From sequence record NZ_CP088248.1: a stretch of 52,774 nt of DNA; one strand, given 5' to 3'. The DNA comes from a plasmid. The stretch's first letter is position 1. Every line of letters starts with the position of its first letter. Both the position numbers and the translations under genes were made by a program. This document shows positions 21,666 through 26,966 of the stretch, piece by piece. The notes under the pieces were generated by a model that was not told the DNA's origin, did no database searches, and saw only the letters and a list, made by a program, of their open reading frames with translations.

Positions 21666-22340
21666 GTGCCCACCTTCGTTGACGTCCTTTCCAGCGACCG
21701 CTTCGCCACCTACCAGCACTGGGCCGACGGTGATGATGCTCTGGCGCTCCGGCTCTACACCTTCAACGTCCAGCTCTCGGCGGCCCTCTATGGGCCGCTG
21801 CACATGCTCGAGGTGACACTGCGCAACCGGGCTGATGCCCAACTGATGACGGTGTATGGCCCGGACTGGCTCGACGACCCAGTCGCCCTTCCCGGCCGCT
21901 ATCAGCGTGACTGCGTGATCAAGGCCCGCGCCACGCTGCTGGGCGAGCGCAAAGCCGCCAGCCACGGGCAGATGGTGGCCGAGCTGACGTTCGGATTTTG
22001 GACTTCGCTGTTTGGCCGTGACGGGACGCACCTGTGGCAGCATCTTCGGCCTATCTTCCAGGCCAAGGGCATTCAGCGAGGCCTGATCGCCGGGCAGCTG
22101 CGCGACCTCCGGCACCTGCGCAACCGGGTCGCCCACTACGAGCCGATCCTCACCCAGCCCCTCGCCCAGCGCTACGGCAATCTCACCACCCTCACCGGCT
22201 GGCTCTCGCCGACCGCCGCGGCCTGGATCGCCCAGACGTCCGCCTGGGGAGCGCTCTACCCGGCTGTACCGGTGCTTGTGCCGAACGCTGCCGGTGACCT
22301 GCGCGTCGAGCCAGCTGTCATTCCCTTCCTGCCAGCCTGA
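21666..22340 (+). CDS. Abi family protein (Abi_2/AbiD-AbiF-like abortive-infection protein)
   Basis: TFGFWTSLFGRDGTHLWQHL...LRHLRNRVAHYEPIL resembles the Abi_2 signature (FGxW...RNRxAHHE). Confidence 0.55.
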   Translation: MPTFVDVLSSDRFATYQHWADGDDALALRLYTFNVQLSAALYGPLHMLEVTLRNRADAQLMTVYGPDWLDDPVALPGRYQRDCVIKARATLLGERKAASHGQMVAELTFGFWTSLFGRDGTHLWQHLRPIFQAKGIQRGLIAGQLRDLRHLRNRVAHYEPILTQPLAQRYGNLTTLTGWLSPTAAAWIAQTSAWGALYPAVPVLVPNAAGDLRVEPAVIPFLPA

Positions 22341-23164: not shown

Positions 23165-23487
23165 GCCGCACCACCGCGATCCAGCGTCTCAACGACGCCC
23201 TACGCTCTCAGCTGACCGGCGGTCGGCTGATGCTCACCCCAGGAGTCAGCCAACTGGCTCCGCTCGACCGGCTGGCGGTGCTGAACCTGATGCGCGATTT
23301 TAGCGCGTTCACGCCGGACAACGATCCTCACGGCGAGCACGACTTCGGCAGCGTCGAGCACAAGGGCACGCGCTACTTCTGGAAGATCGACTACTACGAC
23401 CTCCAGTTGGCGATGCACTCGCCGGACCCGGCCGATCCGGCGGTGACCGTCCGGGTCCTCACGCTGATGCGCGCCGACGAGTACTAA
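23161..23487 (+). CDS. DUF3768 domain protein
   Basis: TPDNDPHGEHDFG...YFWKIDYYD...DPADPAVTVRVLTLM, as in DUF3768. The start overlaps the DUF736 gene stop. Confidence 0.6.
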   Translation: MSRTTAIQRLNDALRSQLTGGRLMLTPGVSQLAPLDRLAVLNLMRDFSAFTPDNDPHGEHDFGSVEHKGTRYFWKIDYYDLQLAMHSPDPADPAVTVRVLTLMRADEY

Positions 23488-24044
23488 CCGGCTGCGCTGC
23501 CCGAACCGCCCTCCGGGGCGGTTTCAGCTTTGGCCATCATGTGGGCCTTCACCCGATTGATCGCCTTACGGTTCTTCCGTGCAAACCGCTGCAGGTGCTC
23601 GAATGCTGTCGCGCTCGATTTCGCTTCGATAAAGCGCTGCTGCCACTCCGGCATACCCTCAATCACAGCCAGAGAGTCGATAATTTTTTCGCGGAGGATC
23701 TTTTTGGGATAGCGCCCCAATAGGCCTCCATTCAAGGCAACTGTCCGCAGCTCAAGAAAATTCATAAACTCCAGGAAGGCAGCATCCTGCTCGTCCGGCT
23801 TGTCACGAGAACGAAGTAGCGCCTGCTCACGCTCAGTCACAGCATTGAACAGCTCTTGCAGGGCCTGCAAATCACCTGCCTTGCGGCCCGCTCGTAGTTG
23901 AGCACCGACGTAGAAGAGGGCTGCAAGAGCGATAAGCGCTTGTAGTGCAGTGCCAGCAGCCGACAGTGCAGCCCACTGTTTTTCATCGAGCAGAGCGTAG
24001 ACTGCGCTTGCGCCCTGGCTGAGCAGCGATAGTGCCGAGTCCAA
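23484..24044 (-). CDS. Hypothetical protein, first of three small minus-strand ORFs (23484..24469)
   Basis: ORF only. One hydrophobic segment. Confidence 0.4.
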   Translation of the reverse strand: MDSALSLLSQGASAVYALLDEKQWAALSAAGTALQALIALAALFYVGAQLRAGRKAGDLQALQELFNAVTEREQALLRSRDKPDEQDAAFLEFMNFLELRTVALNGGLLGRYPKKILREKIIDSLAVIEGMPEWQQRFIEAKSSATAFEHLQRFARKNRKAINRVKAHMMAKAETAPEGGSGSAAG

Positions 24045-24592
24045 TCTCAGGACTTCCCTGTTGCCAAGGGACGCTGAACCACTGGCGGCGGTGCCGGTTG
24101 CGCAGGCTGTGCCTGCTGGGGCAGCGCCGATTGCAGCAAGCGCTGTGGCAAGCGCTGTGGCAAGCTGCGGCGCAGGTTATCGGATGTCATGCCACCATAG
24201 AAACTCATATGCTGATCGAGCAGATCGTCGACGTGCAGGGGGGCAAGCCTGGGCAGTTTAGGGATCATAGCGTCGGCTTAGTCCTTCTTTTGAGGAGGGG
24301 GTGGTGCGGCCGGAGGAGCTGCGGGGGCTGCGGGAGCCGGTGGCGTAGGACGCAATGCGCCGCTGAGGTTGGCTGAAGTCAGCCCACGCTGCAGCAACGT
24401 CGACGATAAGCCATCATTGGCTTGCGTCGGACGACTCGGTTGAGGTCGATCGGGACGGCGAGCTGTCAAATGTAACTCCTAAAGGTTTGATACGCTTGAA
24501 TTAAGCGGTGAATGTAGCCCGAAACCACTTGCGGAACAAACAGGAAACGCACTAGCTTGTGTTGCAAGTGGAACGTGCAGGGGGGTGAATCA

Positions 24593-25081
24593 GTGAGGGT
24601 CGGAGTCAGCGGGCATCAGGCACGGCCAGGCATCGACTGGAACTGGGTAGCTGATGCAGTTCGAGCAGAGTTGGCTCAGTGCTCGACCATCACTCAGGCG
24701 CTTACCTCACTCGCTGTCGGAAGTGACCAGATATTTGCACAATGCGCACTAGAGATGAATGTGCCTGTTCTCGCTGTGATCCCTATCCACAACTATGAGA
24801 GTTTCTTCGAAGGGGACGGACTCGCCCGTTACCGCGAGCTTCTCGCCGCTAGTGAGCGGCTCGATCTTAACACCACCGACGAGCCCGAACCGGCCTTCTA
24901 TGCAGCTGGGCGTTATATCGTTGAGCGTTGCGATCTCCTGTTGGCTATTTGGGACGGTAAGCCTGCTGCTGGTTTGGGTGGAACCGGTGATGCTGTTGAG
25001 TACGCTCTTCAGCAGGGTAGATCCTGCATTATAATTGATCCAATCCAGAAGACCGTTAGCCGCATCAACCGTGGAGAATGA
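24593..25081 (+). CDS. SLOG/LOG/DprA-like Rossmann-fold protein (candidate nucleotide-signal sensor)
   Basis: VGVSGHQARPGIDW...SLAVGSDQIFAQCALEMNVPVLAVIPI...CDLLLAIWDGKPAAGLGGTGDAVEYALQQGRSCIIID follows the G-rich P-loop-like plus xxGxD pattern of the SLOG/LOG/DprA superfamily. GTG at 24593 with GGGGGTGA RBS. The alternative TTG at 24557 lies inside an inverted repeat. Confidence 0.5.
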   Translation: MRVGVSGHQARPGIDWNWVADAVRAELAQCSTITQALTSLAVGSDQIFAQCALEMNVPVLAVIPIHNYESFFEGDGLARYRELLAASERLDLNTTDEPEPAFYAAGRYIVERCDLLLAIWDGKPAAGLGGTGDAVEYALQQGRSCIIIDPIQKTVSRINRGE

Positions 25082-25087
25082 GACCTG

Positions 25088-25477
25088 ATGGCCAAAAAAC
25101 GTGTGTTTGTCAGCTTCGATTACGATCACGATCAATTTCTGAAAACCGCTATCGTCGGTCAGGCGAAGCTGGCGGACAGTCCTTTCGAACTGGCCGACTG
25201 GTCAATCAAGGAGCATCTGACGGGTGACTGGAAGGCTAAGGCCCGCACACGGATCAGGAGCGTCGACATCGTCATCATCATGTGTGGCCAGCACACCCAC
25301 ACAGCTGCTGGTGTAAATGCAGAAATGAAAATCGCGCAGGAGGAAGGGGTGACCTACTTCCTACTCAAAGGGTACGCCGACAAGACATGTACAAAGCCTT
25401 TGAGCGCAACGAGCCGGGACAATCTCTACGCATGGACTTGGGATAATCTGAAGAAGCTCATCGGTGGAGCTCGCTAG
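25088..25477 (+). CDS. TIR-like domain protein (ThsB-like/DUF1863)
   Basis: MAKKRVFVSFDYDHDQFLK... matches the ThsB/DUF1863 N-terminal motif (MAKRVFFSFHYQD). 129 aa. Lies 6 nt downstream of the SLOG-like gene. Confidence 0.65.
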   Translation: MAKKRVFVSFDYDHDQFLKTAIVGQAKLADSPFELADWSIKEHLTGDWKAKARTRIRSVDIVIIMCGQHTHTAAGVNAEMKIAQEEGVTYFLLKGYADKTCTKPLSATSRDNLYAWTWDNLKKLIGGAR

Positions 25478-25479
25478 CC

Positions 25480-26475
25480 ATGAAGAAGGCCCTGGTTGTC
25501 GGGATTGACGACTACCATTCCGCACCTTTGCAAGGGTGCGTGAACGATGCATCTTCCGTAGCGCAGCTTCTCGAGCGCAATGGTGACGGTTCCCCGAACT
25601 TCTCCGTCAGGCTGCTCACCAGTGACAAGCTTGAGGTCAATGCACAGGTTCTGCTGCAGGCCATCACTGAGCTTTTCAGCGGCGATGCCGATACGGCTCT
25701 GCTGTTTTTTGCTGGGCATGGGATCATCAACCCGGAAACGAATGCCGGCTATATCGTCAGTCAGGACGGGCGGAAGCCCAGTTGGGGAGTCACGCTATCT
25801 GACATCCTCCATCTGGCCAACCAAGCGTACCCGCGCGTGAAGTCGAGCGTGATCATCCTAGACAGCTGTCAATCCGGCTATGCTGGTGAAATCCAAGGAC
25901 TTGGTTCGGCAGCGAACCAACCGTCGGTGATCGGTAACGGAGTAACAATCCTGACCGCTTCACATCGGGAGGGTACTGCCGCCGAAGAGGATGGGCATGG
26001 ACTCTTCACTAGCATCCTCCTTGATGGTTTGAGCGGTAGCTCGGCTGATGTAATCGGCCGGATTACGCCGGCATCCGTGTACTCCCATATCGATCAGACG
26101 CTTGGGCCTTGGAAACAGCGTCCTGTTTACAAGGCGAACGTGCAAACCTTTGTAACGCTACGCAATGTGGCTCCAAAGATCCCCCACGAGGTGCTGCGAC
26201 GACTGCCAGAGTACTTTCCAGACCCGGCGCACGTGTTTCAACTGGATCCATCCTACGAGCCTGACCGTGAGAATGTGCCGGAGCGCGTTAAGCACATCCC
26301 GGTCGACGAAGATCACAAGCGTATCTTCAAGGAGCTACAGCTTTGTAATCGGCATGGTCTCATCGTGCCCGTCGATGCTGAGCACATGTACTATGCTGCG
26401 ATAGACTCCAAAGGATGTCGTCTTTCTGCGCTTGGTGCCCACTACAGAAAGCTCGCGATCCTTGGGCGTATATAG
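25480..26475 (+). CDS. Caspase-like (peptidase C14/metacaspase family) protein with an uncharacterised C-terminal domain
   Basis: KKALVVGIDDYHSAPLQGCVNDASSVAQLL...LLFFAGHGI...IILDSCQSG gives the His (AGHG) and Cys (DSCQSG) catalytic dyad context of caspase/metacaspase. Confidence 0.8.
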   Translation: MKKALVVGIDDYHSAPLQGCVNDASSVAQLLERNGDGSPNFSVRLLTSDKLEVNAQVLLQAITELFSGDADTALLFFAGHGIINPETNAGYIVSQDGRKPSWGVTLSDILHLANQAYPRVKSSVIILDSCQSGYAGEIQGLGSAANQPSVIGNGVTILTASHREGTAAEEDGHGLFTSILLDGLSGSSADVIGRITPASVYSHIDQTLGPWKQRPVYKANVQTFVTLRNVAPKIPHEVLRRLPEYFPDPAHVFQLDPSYEPDRENVPERVKHIPVDEDHKRIFKELQLCNRHGLIVPVDAEHMYYAAIDSKGCRLSALGAHYRKLAILGRI

Positions 26476-26489
26476 ATAAGTGAGGGGAT

Positions 26490-26966
26490 ATGAAGGTCTT
26501 CCTTTCTCATCAAAAGGCCGACTCTGAGACTGCAGGGATTATCGCAACTAGATTGAAGCTTTATCACCAAATTGACGTCTATCTGGACGTTGTTGATCCA
26601 AACGCGTCAACAACGGGAGACGATCTAGGAGAGTACTTGCGCCAGCAGCTCTCAATTTGCACCCAGCTGATGGCAGTTGTGTCCGCTGCAACGAAAACCT
26701 CGTGGTGGGTACCGTGGGAAATTGGTGTTGCTACCGAGAAGGATTATCCGATCGCCACCTTTGCGGGAGGCTACACGACGCTGCCCGAATATCTGCGCAA
26801 GTGGCCTTACCTTCAGTCCATGAGTGATGTCGATGCTTATGCTGAGGCAAGCAAGATGGCACAGCGCGAGTTCAAGAACCGGAGAACCTATCAAACGGAT
26901 AGCTTAGCGCGGCGTAGCTCTACAAAAGACTTTTATCGCGTGTTGCGCTCAAGCCTACGTCAGTGA
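26490..26966 (+). CDS. TIR domain protein (TIR_2-like)
   Basis: MKVFLSHQKADSETA...SWWVPWEIGVA matches bacterial TIR motifs (vFiSh..D, S.WC..El). Confidence 0.7.
   Translation: MKVFLSHQKADSETAGIIATRLKLYHQIDVYLDVVDPNASTTGDDLGEYLRQQLSICTQLMAVVSAATKTSWWVPWEIGVATEKDYPIATFAGGYTTLPEYLRKWPYLQSMSDVDAYAEASKMAQREFKNRRTYQTDSLARRSSTKDFYRVLRSSLRQ

What the first reader, a model, noticed from the sequence alone, without database searches (positions are those of the whole stretch)
24525..26966. Low-GC four-gene island SLOG-like / ThsB-like TIR / caspase-like peptidase / TIR: candidate uncharacterised Thoeris-like immune system with a protease effector
Four co-directional genes with 2-14-nt gaps (operon-like):
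- a SLOG/LOG/DprA-superfamily Rossmann protein;
- a 129-aa TIR-like protein whose N-terminus (MAKKRVFVSFDYDHD) matches ThsB/DUF1863;
- a C14 caspase-like peptidase (AGHG ... DSCQSG dyad) with an uncharacterised, roughly 130-aa C-terminal domain;
- a second TIR (SWWVPWEIG).

The island is about 45-55% GC against 68% for the replicon, so it was probably acquired horizontally.

In Thoeris, TIR (ThsB) proteins synthesise a cyclic-ADPR-type signal that is sensed by a SLOG domain fused to the effector (ThsA). Here the SLOG-like module is a separate gene and the only enzyme-like effector is a caspase-type protease. That suggests a TIR-to-signal-to-SLOG-to-protease arrangement. Whether this exact four-gene architecture, with two different TIRs, has been described cannot be checked from here. 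It is flanked by plasmid backbone (DUF736/DUF3768 and parA).
Basis: partly seen in the sequence, partly recalled or inferred. Interest (0 to 1): 0.9.

Follow-up and report, generated by a model that had tools for sequence, protein, structure and literature searches.

The report
Type IV Thoeris with extra SLOG gene
This plasmid island is a member of type IV Thoeris, an already described anti-phage system in which a TIR enzyme makes a signal that switches on a caspase-like protease; here it also carries a second TIR and a small SLOG-fold protein that recurs in such operons but that I did not find described in the papers I could search.

Summary
The four co-directional genes are real. Gaps between them are 6, 2 and 14 nt. 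The island is 54% GC against 62% for the window.

- **g2 and g3 (core):** g2 (129 aa) is a ThsB-type TIR, 34% identical to PsTIR, with catalytic E79 aligned. g3 (331 aa) is a caspase with H80/C130 and a conserved C-terminal domain. Together they match the TIR–caspase pair published as type IV Thoeris (Rousset et al.). In that system the caspase is activated directly by TIR-made N7-cADPR.
- **g4 (second TIR):** Its family lies directly downstream of the caspase in 61 Pseudomonas loci. At least four of those genomes appear in that paper's Table S1 with an "additional TIR".
- **g1 (SLOG):** The fold is confirmed (pLDDT 94; best match YpsA, then ShosA, DprA, ThsA-SLOG and LOG).

Caspases about 70% identical to g3 occur with a TIR and no SLOG, and SLOG-linked caspases keep the conserved C-terminal domain.

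g1 is nevertheless not a passenger. In 56 of 65 informative metagenome loci its homologue directly follows a caspase. Elsewhere it partners, or is fused to, 8xMP membrane proteins.

Verdict: a known system, plus an accessory SLOG component I did not find described. Its most likely role is a signal-binding regulatory subunit. That role is inferred, not shown.

The parts
24593..25081 (+). g1: standalone SLOG-fold protein (162 aa from GTG; the mechanical ORF starts at TTG 24557). YpsA-like. Accessory gene of TIR-caspase operons.
   Evidence: AF2 model pLDDT 94.2. Foldseek PDB: YpsA 2nx2 E 2e-8 and TM 0.73, then ShosA, DprA, Moco carrier protein, BcThsA SLOG and LOG. The family profile gives weak sequence hits to YpsA (E 0.028) and ShosA (E 0.1). 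A GGGGGG run lies 7 nt before the GTG. The start is supported by P0121 and by L176.
25088..25477 (+). g2: short ThsB-type TIR (129 aa) of the PsTIR type. Presumed signal synthase.
   Evidence: PF08937 E 2e-6. PADLOC ThsB E 7e-6. 34% identity over 120 aa to PsTIR (E 2e-17), with E79 aligned to the residue mutated as E79Q in the paper. Homologues lie directly upstream of the caspase in about 18 of 24 loci of this caspase clade.
25480..26133 (+). g3, N-terminal part: caspase-like (Peptidase_C14) catalytic domain of the ThsE-type effector.
   Evidence: PF00656 E 1e-16, residues 2-218. NCBIfam caspase_w_EACC1 domain E 3e-22, below its cut-off. H80 and C130 are conserved in at least 90% of 130 homologues.
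26134..26475 (+). g3, C-terminal part (about 113 aa plus stop): ThsE-specific domain, the hypothesised N7-cADPR sensor.
26490..26966 (+). g4: second TIR (158 aa, TIR_2/ThsB-like, E77). An 'additional ThsB'.
   Evidence: PF13676 E 1e-8. PADLOC ThsB E 7e-13. Homologues of 35-46% identity start 3-9 nt after the caspase alignment ends in all 61 Pseudomonas loci. At least four of those genomes are listed with an 'Additional TIR' in Rousset Table S1.

Best explanation

**Core (by homology to the published system).** g2, a ThsB-type TIR, detects infection and converts NAD+ into the cyclic signal N7-cADPR. The signal binds the C-terminal domain of the g3 caspase-like protease (ThsE). The protease then cleaves cellular proteins after arginine and aborts the infection.

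**g4.** This is a second ThsB of a different family. By analogy with Thoeris systems that carry several TIRs, it most likely widens the range of phages sensed.

**g1.** This is a non-canonical extra: a standalone YpsA-like SLOG protein that belongs to these operons. My best inference is that it binds the TIR-made nucleotide and acts as a regulatory subunit of the effector, a threshold-setter or safety catch, rather than as the obligatory sensor.

**Shown here:** the domain and fold identities, the homology to the published components, and the gene linkage.

**Inferred:** the signal chemistry, phage defence by this particular locus, and everything about what g1 does. I put the specific g1 role at about 0.35.
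For: **Core.**
- g2 is 34% identical to PsTIR with E79 aligned.
- g3 aligns over its full length (48-52% identity) with caspases of Pseudomonas sp. Leaf48, RIT-PI-r, Root562 and P. vancouverensis. All four are listed as type IV Thoeris in Table S1 of 10.1101/2024.10.24.620036.
- Catalytic H80/C130 and the C-terminal residues are conserved.
- The family holds more than 5000 homologues of about 329 aa.

**g4.** TIR-caspase-TIR is catalogued in the paper's 'Additional TIR' column and is seen in L003/L004 and in 61 Pseudomonas loci.

**g1 linkage.**
- 61 of 80 metagenome loci fetched with the g1 profile carry a caspase.
- 56 of 65 informative loci have the caspase immediately upstream on the same strand, mostly 0-20 nt away.
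- The trio has 4-nt overlaps on B. subtilis plasmid pBS72.
- The same four components occur in another order on Rhizobium binae p4, in L020, in L019 and in L167.

**g1 as a binder rather than a LOG-type enzyme.**
- The fold is closest to YpsA.
- The position of the LOG catalytic Glu (PGGxGTxxE) is variable in the family. The Gly-rich loop and the GxD motif are invariant.

**g1 as accessory, not relay.**
- Caspases 60-76% identical to g3 occur with a TIR and no SLOG.
- 2 of 4 independently sampled clade-B caspase loci lack it.

**g1 tied to effectors.** SLOG-8xMP fusion P0229, TIR-8xMP-SLOG operons L101/L102/L104, and a hit inside a DUF4231 protein.
Against: - No experiment was done on this locus. 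N7-cADPR production and protease activation are transferred from homologues that are only 34% (TIR) and about 50% (caspase) identical.
- I could compare g3 only with Pseudomonas caspases listed in the paper's table. The PsCaspase sequence itself is cut off in the stored supplement.
- For g1, nothing distinguishes negative from positive regulation. Fusions to membrane effectors fit equally well a true sensor domain that activates its partner.
- Invariant polar residues (H8, Q9, D45, D121, D133) could form a non-LOG catalytic site.
- The sample of clade-B caspases was fetched through g1, so it overstates their association.
- No promoter or terminator was detected that would delimit the operon.
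Confidence: 0.75

Rival explanations
1. The SLOG protein is the signal receptor. The TIR product binds g1, and ligand-bound g1 then activates the caspase. This would be a three-step relay with a split sensor and effector.
For: - g1-type SLOG is fused to an 8xMP membrane domain in P0229.
- It lies next to a bare 8xMP protein in TIR-8xMP-SLOG operons (L101, L102, L104).
- A homologous stretch sits inside a DUF4231 protein in Caballeronia.
- These are sensor-effector architectures like ThsA.
- The caspase and g1 genes abut or overlap, which suggests a stoichiometric complex.
- SLOG is the proven 3'cADPR receptor in type I Thoeris (7uxs).
Against: - Published two-gene systems work without any SLOG. 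The caspase responds to TIR metabolites in lysates of cells expressing only the caspase.
- g3 and all SLOG-linked caspases keep the conserved C-terminal domain proposed as the sensor.
- Close relatives of g3 (60-76% identity) occur with a TIR and no SLOG.
- g1 is absent from 2 of 4 independently sampled clade-B loci.
Confidence: 0.15
2. g1 is an enzyme that destroys the signal. It would be a LOG-like N-glycosidase cleaving a ribosyl-adenine bond of N7-cADPR, resetting the system or filtering noise. This would resemble ring nucleases in type III CRISPR.
For: - The SLOG/LOG fold is shared (LOG structures 5zbk, 5zbl and 5its at E 1e-3 to 1e-2).
- Iyer et al. (PMC9503650) predict that YpsA-like SLOG domains may cleave 1'-ribosyl-adenine bonds of cADPR variants.
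- Standalone homologues occur in about 70 Streptomyces phages, where a signal-destroying role would make sense.
- Several invariant polar residues are available.
Against: - The position matching the LOG catalytic Glu is not conserved in the family.
- The closest structures are non-catalytic or DNA-binding members (YpsA, ShosA, DprA).
- Tight translational coupling to the effector gene suggests stoichiometric rather than catalytic action.
- No activity data exist.
Confidence: 0.15
3. The island is two independent units, or g1 is an unrelated passenger. For example, g1 could be a DprA-like DNA-binding plasmid gene, and g4 a solitary NADase TIR, both lying beside a two-gene type IV Thoeris by chance.
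For: - g1 and g4 are each absent from many TIR-caspase loci.
- Gene order is not fixed.
- DprA and ShosA are among g1's structural neighbours.
Against: - 86% of informative g1 loci have a caspase directly upstream.
- The association spans Pseudomonadota, Bacillota, Terriglobia and Dehalococcoidia.
- Genes overlap or abut.
- g4-type TIRs start 3-9 nt after the caspase alignment ends in 61 Pseudomonas loci.
Confidence: 0.04

Closest known systems
Type IV Thoeris (ThsB TIR + ThsE caspase-like protease; Rousset et al., bioRxiv 10.1101/2024.10.24.620036)
   Same: - A short TIR with catalytic Glu at position 79, directly upstream of the caspase.
- A caspase of about 330 aa with the His/Cys dyad and the same C-terminal domain.
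- Optional additional TIR.
- Location among mobile or defence genes.
   Different: The operon has a fourth gene, a standalone SLOG protein. The paper's text, the 2025 systematic TIR survey and the 2026 papers I searched do not mention it. Sequence identity to the tested components is modest (34% for the TIR, about 50% for related caspases).
Type I Thoeris ThsA (SIR2-SLOG effector sensing 3'cADPR)
   Same: A SLOG fold sits in a TIR-signalling operon. The BcThsA SLOG structure 7uxs is among the fold matches (E 7e-4).
   Different: - g1 has no SIR2 or other effector domain.
- There is no STALD Pfam match.
- TM is only about 0.5 to ThsA-SLOG against 0.73 to YpsA.
- The effector here is a protease with its own putative sensor domain.
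YpsA / DUF1273 (PF06908), standalone SLOG protein of Bacillus (PDB 2nx2)
   Same: - Best structural match.
- Same size and standalone form.
- Some g1 homologues are named 'DUF1273 domain-containing' by PGAP or UniRef.
- YpsA-clade SLOG domains are predicted to bind NAD/ADP-ribose derivatives.
   Different: - g1 itself does not reach the Pfam YpsA model. Only P0247 does, and only below threshold (E 6e-5).
- YpsA acts in cell division and oxidative stress and is not encoded with a TIR or caspase.
ShosA, the DprA-like antitoxin of the Shosta defence system (PDB 8zva, 9vzo)
   Same: Second-best fold match, with weak profile and PADLOC hits. It is a SLOG/DprA-like protein that restrains a toxic partner in a defence system, which is a precedent for a safety-catch role.
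   Different: ShosA is about twice as long, pairs with a phosphoribosyltransferase toxin, and has no TIR signalling. The similarity is at fold level only.

Membership tests
Type IV Thoeris | Effector is a caspase-like (Peptidase_C14) protease with an intact His/Cys dyad | tested here: met
   PF00656 E 1e-16. H80 and C130 (PsCaspase C129) are conserved in at least 90% of 130 homologues.
Type IV Thoeris | The caspase carries the family-specific C-terminal domain (putative N7-cADPR sensor) | tested here: met
   tblastn alignments cover g3 residues 1-331 in Pseudomonas genomes that Rousset Table S1 lists as type IV Thoeris: L061 Leaf48, L064 RIT-PI-r, L071 Root562 and L072 P. vancouverensis. C-terminal residues are conserved. 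A direct comparison with full-length PsCaspase was not possible because that sequence is truncated in the supplement.
Type IV Thoeris | Adjacent short TIR/ThsB gene with a catalytic glutamate | tested here: met
   g2 ends 2 nt before g3. PF08937 hit. 34% identity to PsTIR with E79 aligned.
Type IV Thoeris | The TIR makes N7-cADPR on infection; the signal activates arginine-specific proteolysis; the system protects against phage | not testable with these tools
   These are biochemical and phage assays. They are known only for the Pseudomonas sp. 1-7 and E. coli 328 systems.
SLOG superfamily (g1) | Rossmann-like SLOG fold with Gly-rich nucleotide-binding loops | tested here: met
   Model pLDDT 94. 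Foldseek hits at probability 1.00 to YpsA, ShosA, DprA, Moco carrier protein, ThsA-SLOG and LOG. Invariant GxD and GxGG motifs.
Curated SLOG families (Pfam YpsA PF06908, STALD PF18185, LOG/Lysine_decarbox, DprA) | Sequence match to the family model above its threshold | tested here: not met
   No Pfam family at E <= 1 for g1. The profile gives only E 0.028 against the YpsA sequence. g1 belongs to a separate family of about 527 (E <= 1e-30) to 6852 (E <= 1e-10) 50%-identity clusters.
LOG-type N-glycosidase | Conserved catalytic Glu of the PGGxGTxxE motif | tested here: not met
   The window protein has E at that position (LGGTGDAVE). The column is variable across 59 homologues (E, T, A, D, N, H, K, Q).
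Type I Thoeris (ThsA) | SLOG fused to a SIR2 (or TM) effector domain | tested here: not met
   g1 is 162 aa and SLOG only. There is no SIR2 gene in the island.
Type III Thoeris | Match to the NCBIfam Thoeris type III models | tested here: not met
   The only hit is g4 against ThcB4 at 13.6 bits, where the cut-off is 220.

The most novel reading that the evidence does not exclude
The g1-type standalone SLOG protein defines an unrecognised three-component branch of Thoeris-like signalling. It would be a trans-acting nucleotide-binding subunit that gates different effectors made as separate proteins: ThsE caspases, 8xMP membrane proteins and possibly SLATT membrane proteins. It would act either as a host-encoded buffer or safety catch for the TIR signal, or as a second receptor. 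Either role would be a regulatory layer that I did not find described for Thoeris.
Probability: 0.35. Interest if true: 0.65.

Novelty: new variant of a known kind. Interest (0 to 1): 0.45.

Why it matters
The main value is a correction. What looked like a new TIR-to-protease immune system is type IV Thoeris, so the locus should be annotated as ThsB/ThsE plus a second ThsB.

The remaining lead is specific and testable. A compact SLOG protein is tightly linked to hundreds of TIR-caspase operons across several phyla, and it also appears with, or fused to, membrane effectors.

If it buffers or gates the N7-cADPR signal, it would be a host-encoded control on a suicidal protease. It would help explain how such systems avoid self-activation.

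If it is a second receptor, it would show that Thoeris sensors can work as separate subunits.

It also gives a small, well-folded candidate binder for N7-cADPR.

Tried and rejected
1. **Sequence searches for g1.** Pfam, PADLOC, NCBIfam and PDB gave nothing usable. Only the structure prediction placed it.
2. **Nucleotide search of the island against PLSDB plasmids.** No match. Only the backbone matches, at 80-86% identity.
3. **Flanking repeats, promoters and terminators.** Nothing above shuffled expectation, so the island borders and the operon limits are undefined.
4. **'g1 is obligate for a separate caspase clade'.** The UPGMA split looked clean, but that sample was fetched through g1. Four independently sampled clade-B loci showed g1 in only two, so I dropped the idea.
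5. **The 155-aa protein coupled to a g1 homologue in marine Rhodospirillaceae.** It looked like a standalone sensor domain. It is the C-terminal half of a caspase, with an IS element upstream in L173, so it is probably a truncated remnant and not a designed pair.
7. **g1 as a canonical LOG enzyme.** The motif resemblance in the window protein does not hold across the family.
8. **Literature.** Full-text searches found no description of a SLOG accessory gene in type IV Thoeris, and none of 8xMP. The library is incomplete, so this is absence of evidence only.
Full report
**Observation**

The window carries four + strand ORFs at 24557/24593-25081 (g1), 25088-25477 (g2), 25480-26475 (g3) and 26490-26966 (g4). 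They are separated by 6, 2 and 14 nt.

The island is 54.1% GC (51-55.5% per gene). The window averages 61.8%, and the flanks are 60-71%.

Pfam places g2 in ThsB_TIR (E 2e-6). It places g3 in Peptidase_C14 (E 1e-16, residues 2-218), leaving about 113 C-terminal residues unassigned. It places g4 in TIR_2 (E 1e-8). PADLOC calls g2 and g4 ThsB and calls g3 'caspase'.

The catalytic residues are g2 E79, g3 H80/C130 and g4 E77.

g1 has no hit in Pfam, PADLOC, NCBIfam or PDB sequences.

The flanks are plasmid backbone:
- DUF3768, ParA, a ParG-like protein and an RPA-type replication initiator.
- 80-86% nucleotide identity to 36-42 kb Methylobacterium/Methylorubrum plasmids.

In Methylorubrum populi pMPPM03, the slot before parA holds an Abi family gene and a hypothetical gene instead. 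The island therefore sits in a variable cargo position.

The g3 protein is identical to a Methylorubrum aminovorans protein. The island is 99.96-100% identical in other assemblies and metagenomes.

**What the core is**

A short TIR followed by a caspase-like protease of about 330 aa is the published type IV Thoeris system (Rousset et al., bioRxiv 10.1101/2024.10.24.620036). Its mechanism, as published:
1. On infection the TIR makes N7-cADPR.
2. That molecule activates the protease.
3. The protease cleaves many proteins after arginine and aborts infection.

[quoted passage not shown] PsTIR E79Q and PsCaspase C129A abolish defence.

From the cloned sequence in their Table S2 I translated PsTIR. 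It is 34% identical to g2 over 120 residues (E 2e-17), with E79 aligned.

The g3 family is very large, with more than 5000 hits of about 329 aa. A scan of species-representative genomes returned 80 loci. In 61 Pseudomonas loci the caspase aligns with g3 across residues 1-331 or 1-329 at 47-52% identity. Four of these genomes (Pseudomonas sp. Leaf48, RIT-PI-r, Root562 and P. vancouverensis) are listed as type IV Thoeris in the paper's Table S1.

I conclude that g2+g3 are ThsB+ThsE. The published signal chemistry and phenotype are transferred by homology and were not tested here.

**The second TIR**

Table S1 of the paper has an 'Additional TIR' column.

In the Pseudomonas loci an EcTIR-type TIR lies upstream of the caspase (50-58% identity to EcTIR in 58 of the 61). 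A g4-type TIR (35-46% identity to g4) starts 3-9 nt after the end of the caspase alignment.

In the caspase clade closest to g3 (63-76% identity), the upstream TIR is usually g2-type. A g4-type TIR appears downstream (L003, L004) or upstream (L015, L017, L019, L020).

At least three ThsB families therefore partner this caspase. The window combines two of them. Multiple TIRs per Thoeris system are thought to widen phage recognition. That is the most economical reading of g4.

**The SLOG protein**

An alignment of 59 homologues (A1) gave an AlphaFold model with mean pLDDT 94.2. Foldseek against the PDB returns, at probability 1.00:
- YpsA/DUF1273 (E 2e-8, TM 0.73)
- ShosA
- DprA
- Moco carrier proteins
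- the BcThsA SLOG domain bound to 3'cADPR
- LOG enzymes

The family profile only weakly matches the YpsA and ShosA sequences (E 0.03-0.1). An exhaustive profile search finds 527 50%-identity clusters at E <= 1e-30 and 6852 at E <= 1e-10. This is a sizeable family of its own.

Invariant positions are the GxD motif (G43, D45), W120-D121 and the GxGG loop (G127, G129, G130). The position equivalent to the LOG catalytic glutamate is variable. That argues against a canonical LOG-type glycosidase.

**Is g1 part of the system?**

Yes. A metagenome scan with A1 found 495 relatives, of which the best 80 were kept.
- 61 of those 80 loci contain a caspase homologue, and 46 contain a g2-type TIR.
- Of the 65 loci with enough upstream sequence, 56 have the caspase immediately upstream on the same strand, mostly 0-20 nt away. 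Two have the window's order, g1-TIR-caspase.

Annotated plasmids show the same picture:
- B. subtilis pBS72 has TIR-caspase-SLOG with 4-nt overlaps.
- Rhizobium binae p4 has TIR-caspase-SLOG-TIR with abutting genes. These are the window's four components in another order.

Other four-component loci are L020 (Brevundimonas), L019 (Dehalococcoidia MAG) and L167 (Bradyrhizobium vignae). The closest relative outside Methylorubrum, L174, has g1-g2-g3 without g4.

**Is g1 the sensor that relays to the protease?**

The evidence is against an obligate relay.
- The published two-gene systems work without it. The caspase responds to TIR metabolites in lysates of cells expressing only the caspase.
- All 130 caspases I collected are full length. 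Besides H80/C130, both SLOG-linked (n=48) and SLOG-less (n=82) proteins conserve the C-terminal positions R228, L239, L242, F246, L255, E260, L294, A307, L315, G319 and Y322 in at least 90% of sequences.
- Caspases 60-76% identical to g3 occur with a TIR and no SLOG.
- The more distant 'clade B' caspases seemed always SLOG-linked, but that sample was fetched through g1. Four independently sampled clade-B loci had g1 in only two.

g1 is therefore gained and lost around essentially the same TIR-caspase pair. That is the behaviour of an accessory component.

**What g1 may do**

Three loci (L101, L102, L104) encode a PsTIR-like TIR, a small 8xMP membrane protein (PF24838, E 6e-36 and 2e-33) and a g1-type SLOG. 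P0229 is a direct SLOG-8xMP fusion. A Caballeronia plasmid hit lies inside a DUF4231 protein. From my own knowledge, not a tool result, DUF4231 is a SLATT-type membrane domain.

Other fusions are:
- SLOG-TIR-WD40 (P0283)
- a STAND-like ATPase with a C-terminal SLOG (P0203)

The same SLOG thus accompanies different effectors, always in a TIR context, and is sometimes physically joined to the effector. Together with the non-conserved LOG glutamate and the YpsA-like fold, this points to a nucleotide-binding module that works on or with the effector. YpsA-clade SLOG domains are predicted to bind NAD/ADP-ribose derivatives.

Given its dispensability around g3-like caspases, I favour a ligand-binding regulatory subunit, a threshold-setter or safety catch. 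ShosA, a DprA/SLOG-like antitoxin, is a loose precedent.

This step is inference, at about 0.35. Two alternatives remain open at about 0.15 each:
- a signal-degrading enzyme, as Iyer et al. predicted for viral SLOG domains.

Remote standalone homologues in about 70 Streptomyces phages are compatible with a signal-sequestering or signal-destroying activity, but they are only about 27% identical.

**The caspase C-terminal domain**

**Comparison and novelty**

The TIR-caspase-TIR core is a new member of a known system. The linked SLOG gene is not mentioned in:
- the text of the type IV Thoeris paper;
- the 2025 systematic survey of TIR systems, which names only Cap2/3 and Cap9-11 as ancillary genes;
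- the 2026 papers on type IV Thoeris that I could search.

Many rows of Table S1 have a one-gene gap between the caspase and the TIR. Such operons were probably counted without comment.

I therefore rate the finding as a new variant of a known kind, of moderate interest. The headline claim, a novel TIR-to-protease system, is already explained. The SLOG accessory is a concrete and testable lead.

Noticed in passing
window 21666-22340 (+): This 224-aa ORF has a sub-threshold Abi_2 match (E 4e-5, 24.3 bits against a cut-off of 25.6). An ORF of the same length is annotated 'Abi family protein' in the corresponding slot of M. populi plasmid pMPPM03; I did not align the two sequences. It would be a second defence-type gene in the same variable region upstream of parA.
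   Followed up: partly
window 23484-24044 (-): This 186-aa ORF sits between DUF3768 and the island. It is lower in GC than the backbone and has no family match (best: DUF4760, E 0.12). It is present in all identical copies of the plasmid region (L175-L178). Function unknown.
   Followed up: partly
L101 1703-3649; L102 2994-4474; L104 3-871; protein P0229: These operons encode a PsTIR-like TIR, an 8xMP membrane protein (PF24838) and a g1-type SLOG. P0229 is a SLOG-8xMP fusion. This looks like a Thoeris-like system with a membrane effector. I found no paper on 8xMP.
   Followed up: partly
L165, L166, L167 (Bradyrhizobium, Rhizobium): Two different TIR-caspase modules, with caspases only about 35-40% identical to each other, lie side by side in Rhizobiales genomes. 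They are sometimes divergent and sometimes in tandem, with the SLOG and the g4-type TIR between them.
   Followed up: partly
L172 209-1167; L173 1374-3279: In marine Rhodospirillaceae MAGs (P0186; its index lists 80 collection blocks), a 155-aa protein equal to the C-terminal half of the caspase (43% identical to g3 residues 169-331) overlaps the start of a g1 homologue. An IS (rve) transposase lies just upstream in L173. It is probably a truncated remnant that keeps the sensor-like domain and the SLOG.
   Followed up: partly
proteins P0283 (1164 aa) and P0203 (1187 aa): A g1-type SLOG is fused to ThsB_TIR plus WD40 propellers (P0283), and to the C-terminus of an AAA/STAND-like ATPase (P0203).
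   Followed up: no
phage records H9-H23 (e.g. Streptomyces phage Sham ON645339.1, 58531-59001): About 70 Streptomyces phages of about 130 kb encode a standalone protein that aligns over the full length of g1 at about 27% identity. It is annotated 'DprA-like'. It could be a phage counter-defence protein acting on TIR signals.
   Followed up: no
L101 2096-2635; L105 8-427 (-): A 179-aa protein with no family match lies between the TIR and the 8xMP gene in L101. It has a 49% identical relative next to a TIR-caspase-SLOG locus in L105.
   Followed up: no
L175-L178: The island and its plasmid context are 99.96-100% identical in several assemblies and metagenomes. The index lists the g3 protein in 58 collection blocks. 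Gene callers disagree on the g1 start (108, 173 or 174 aa).
   Followed up: yes
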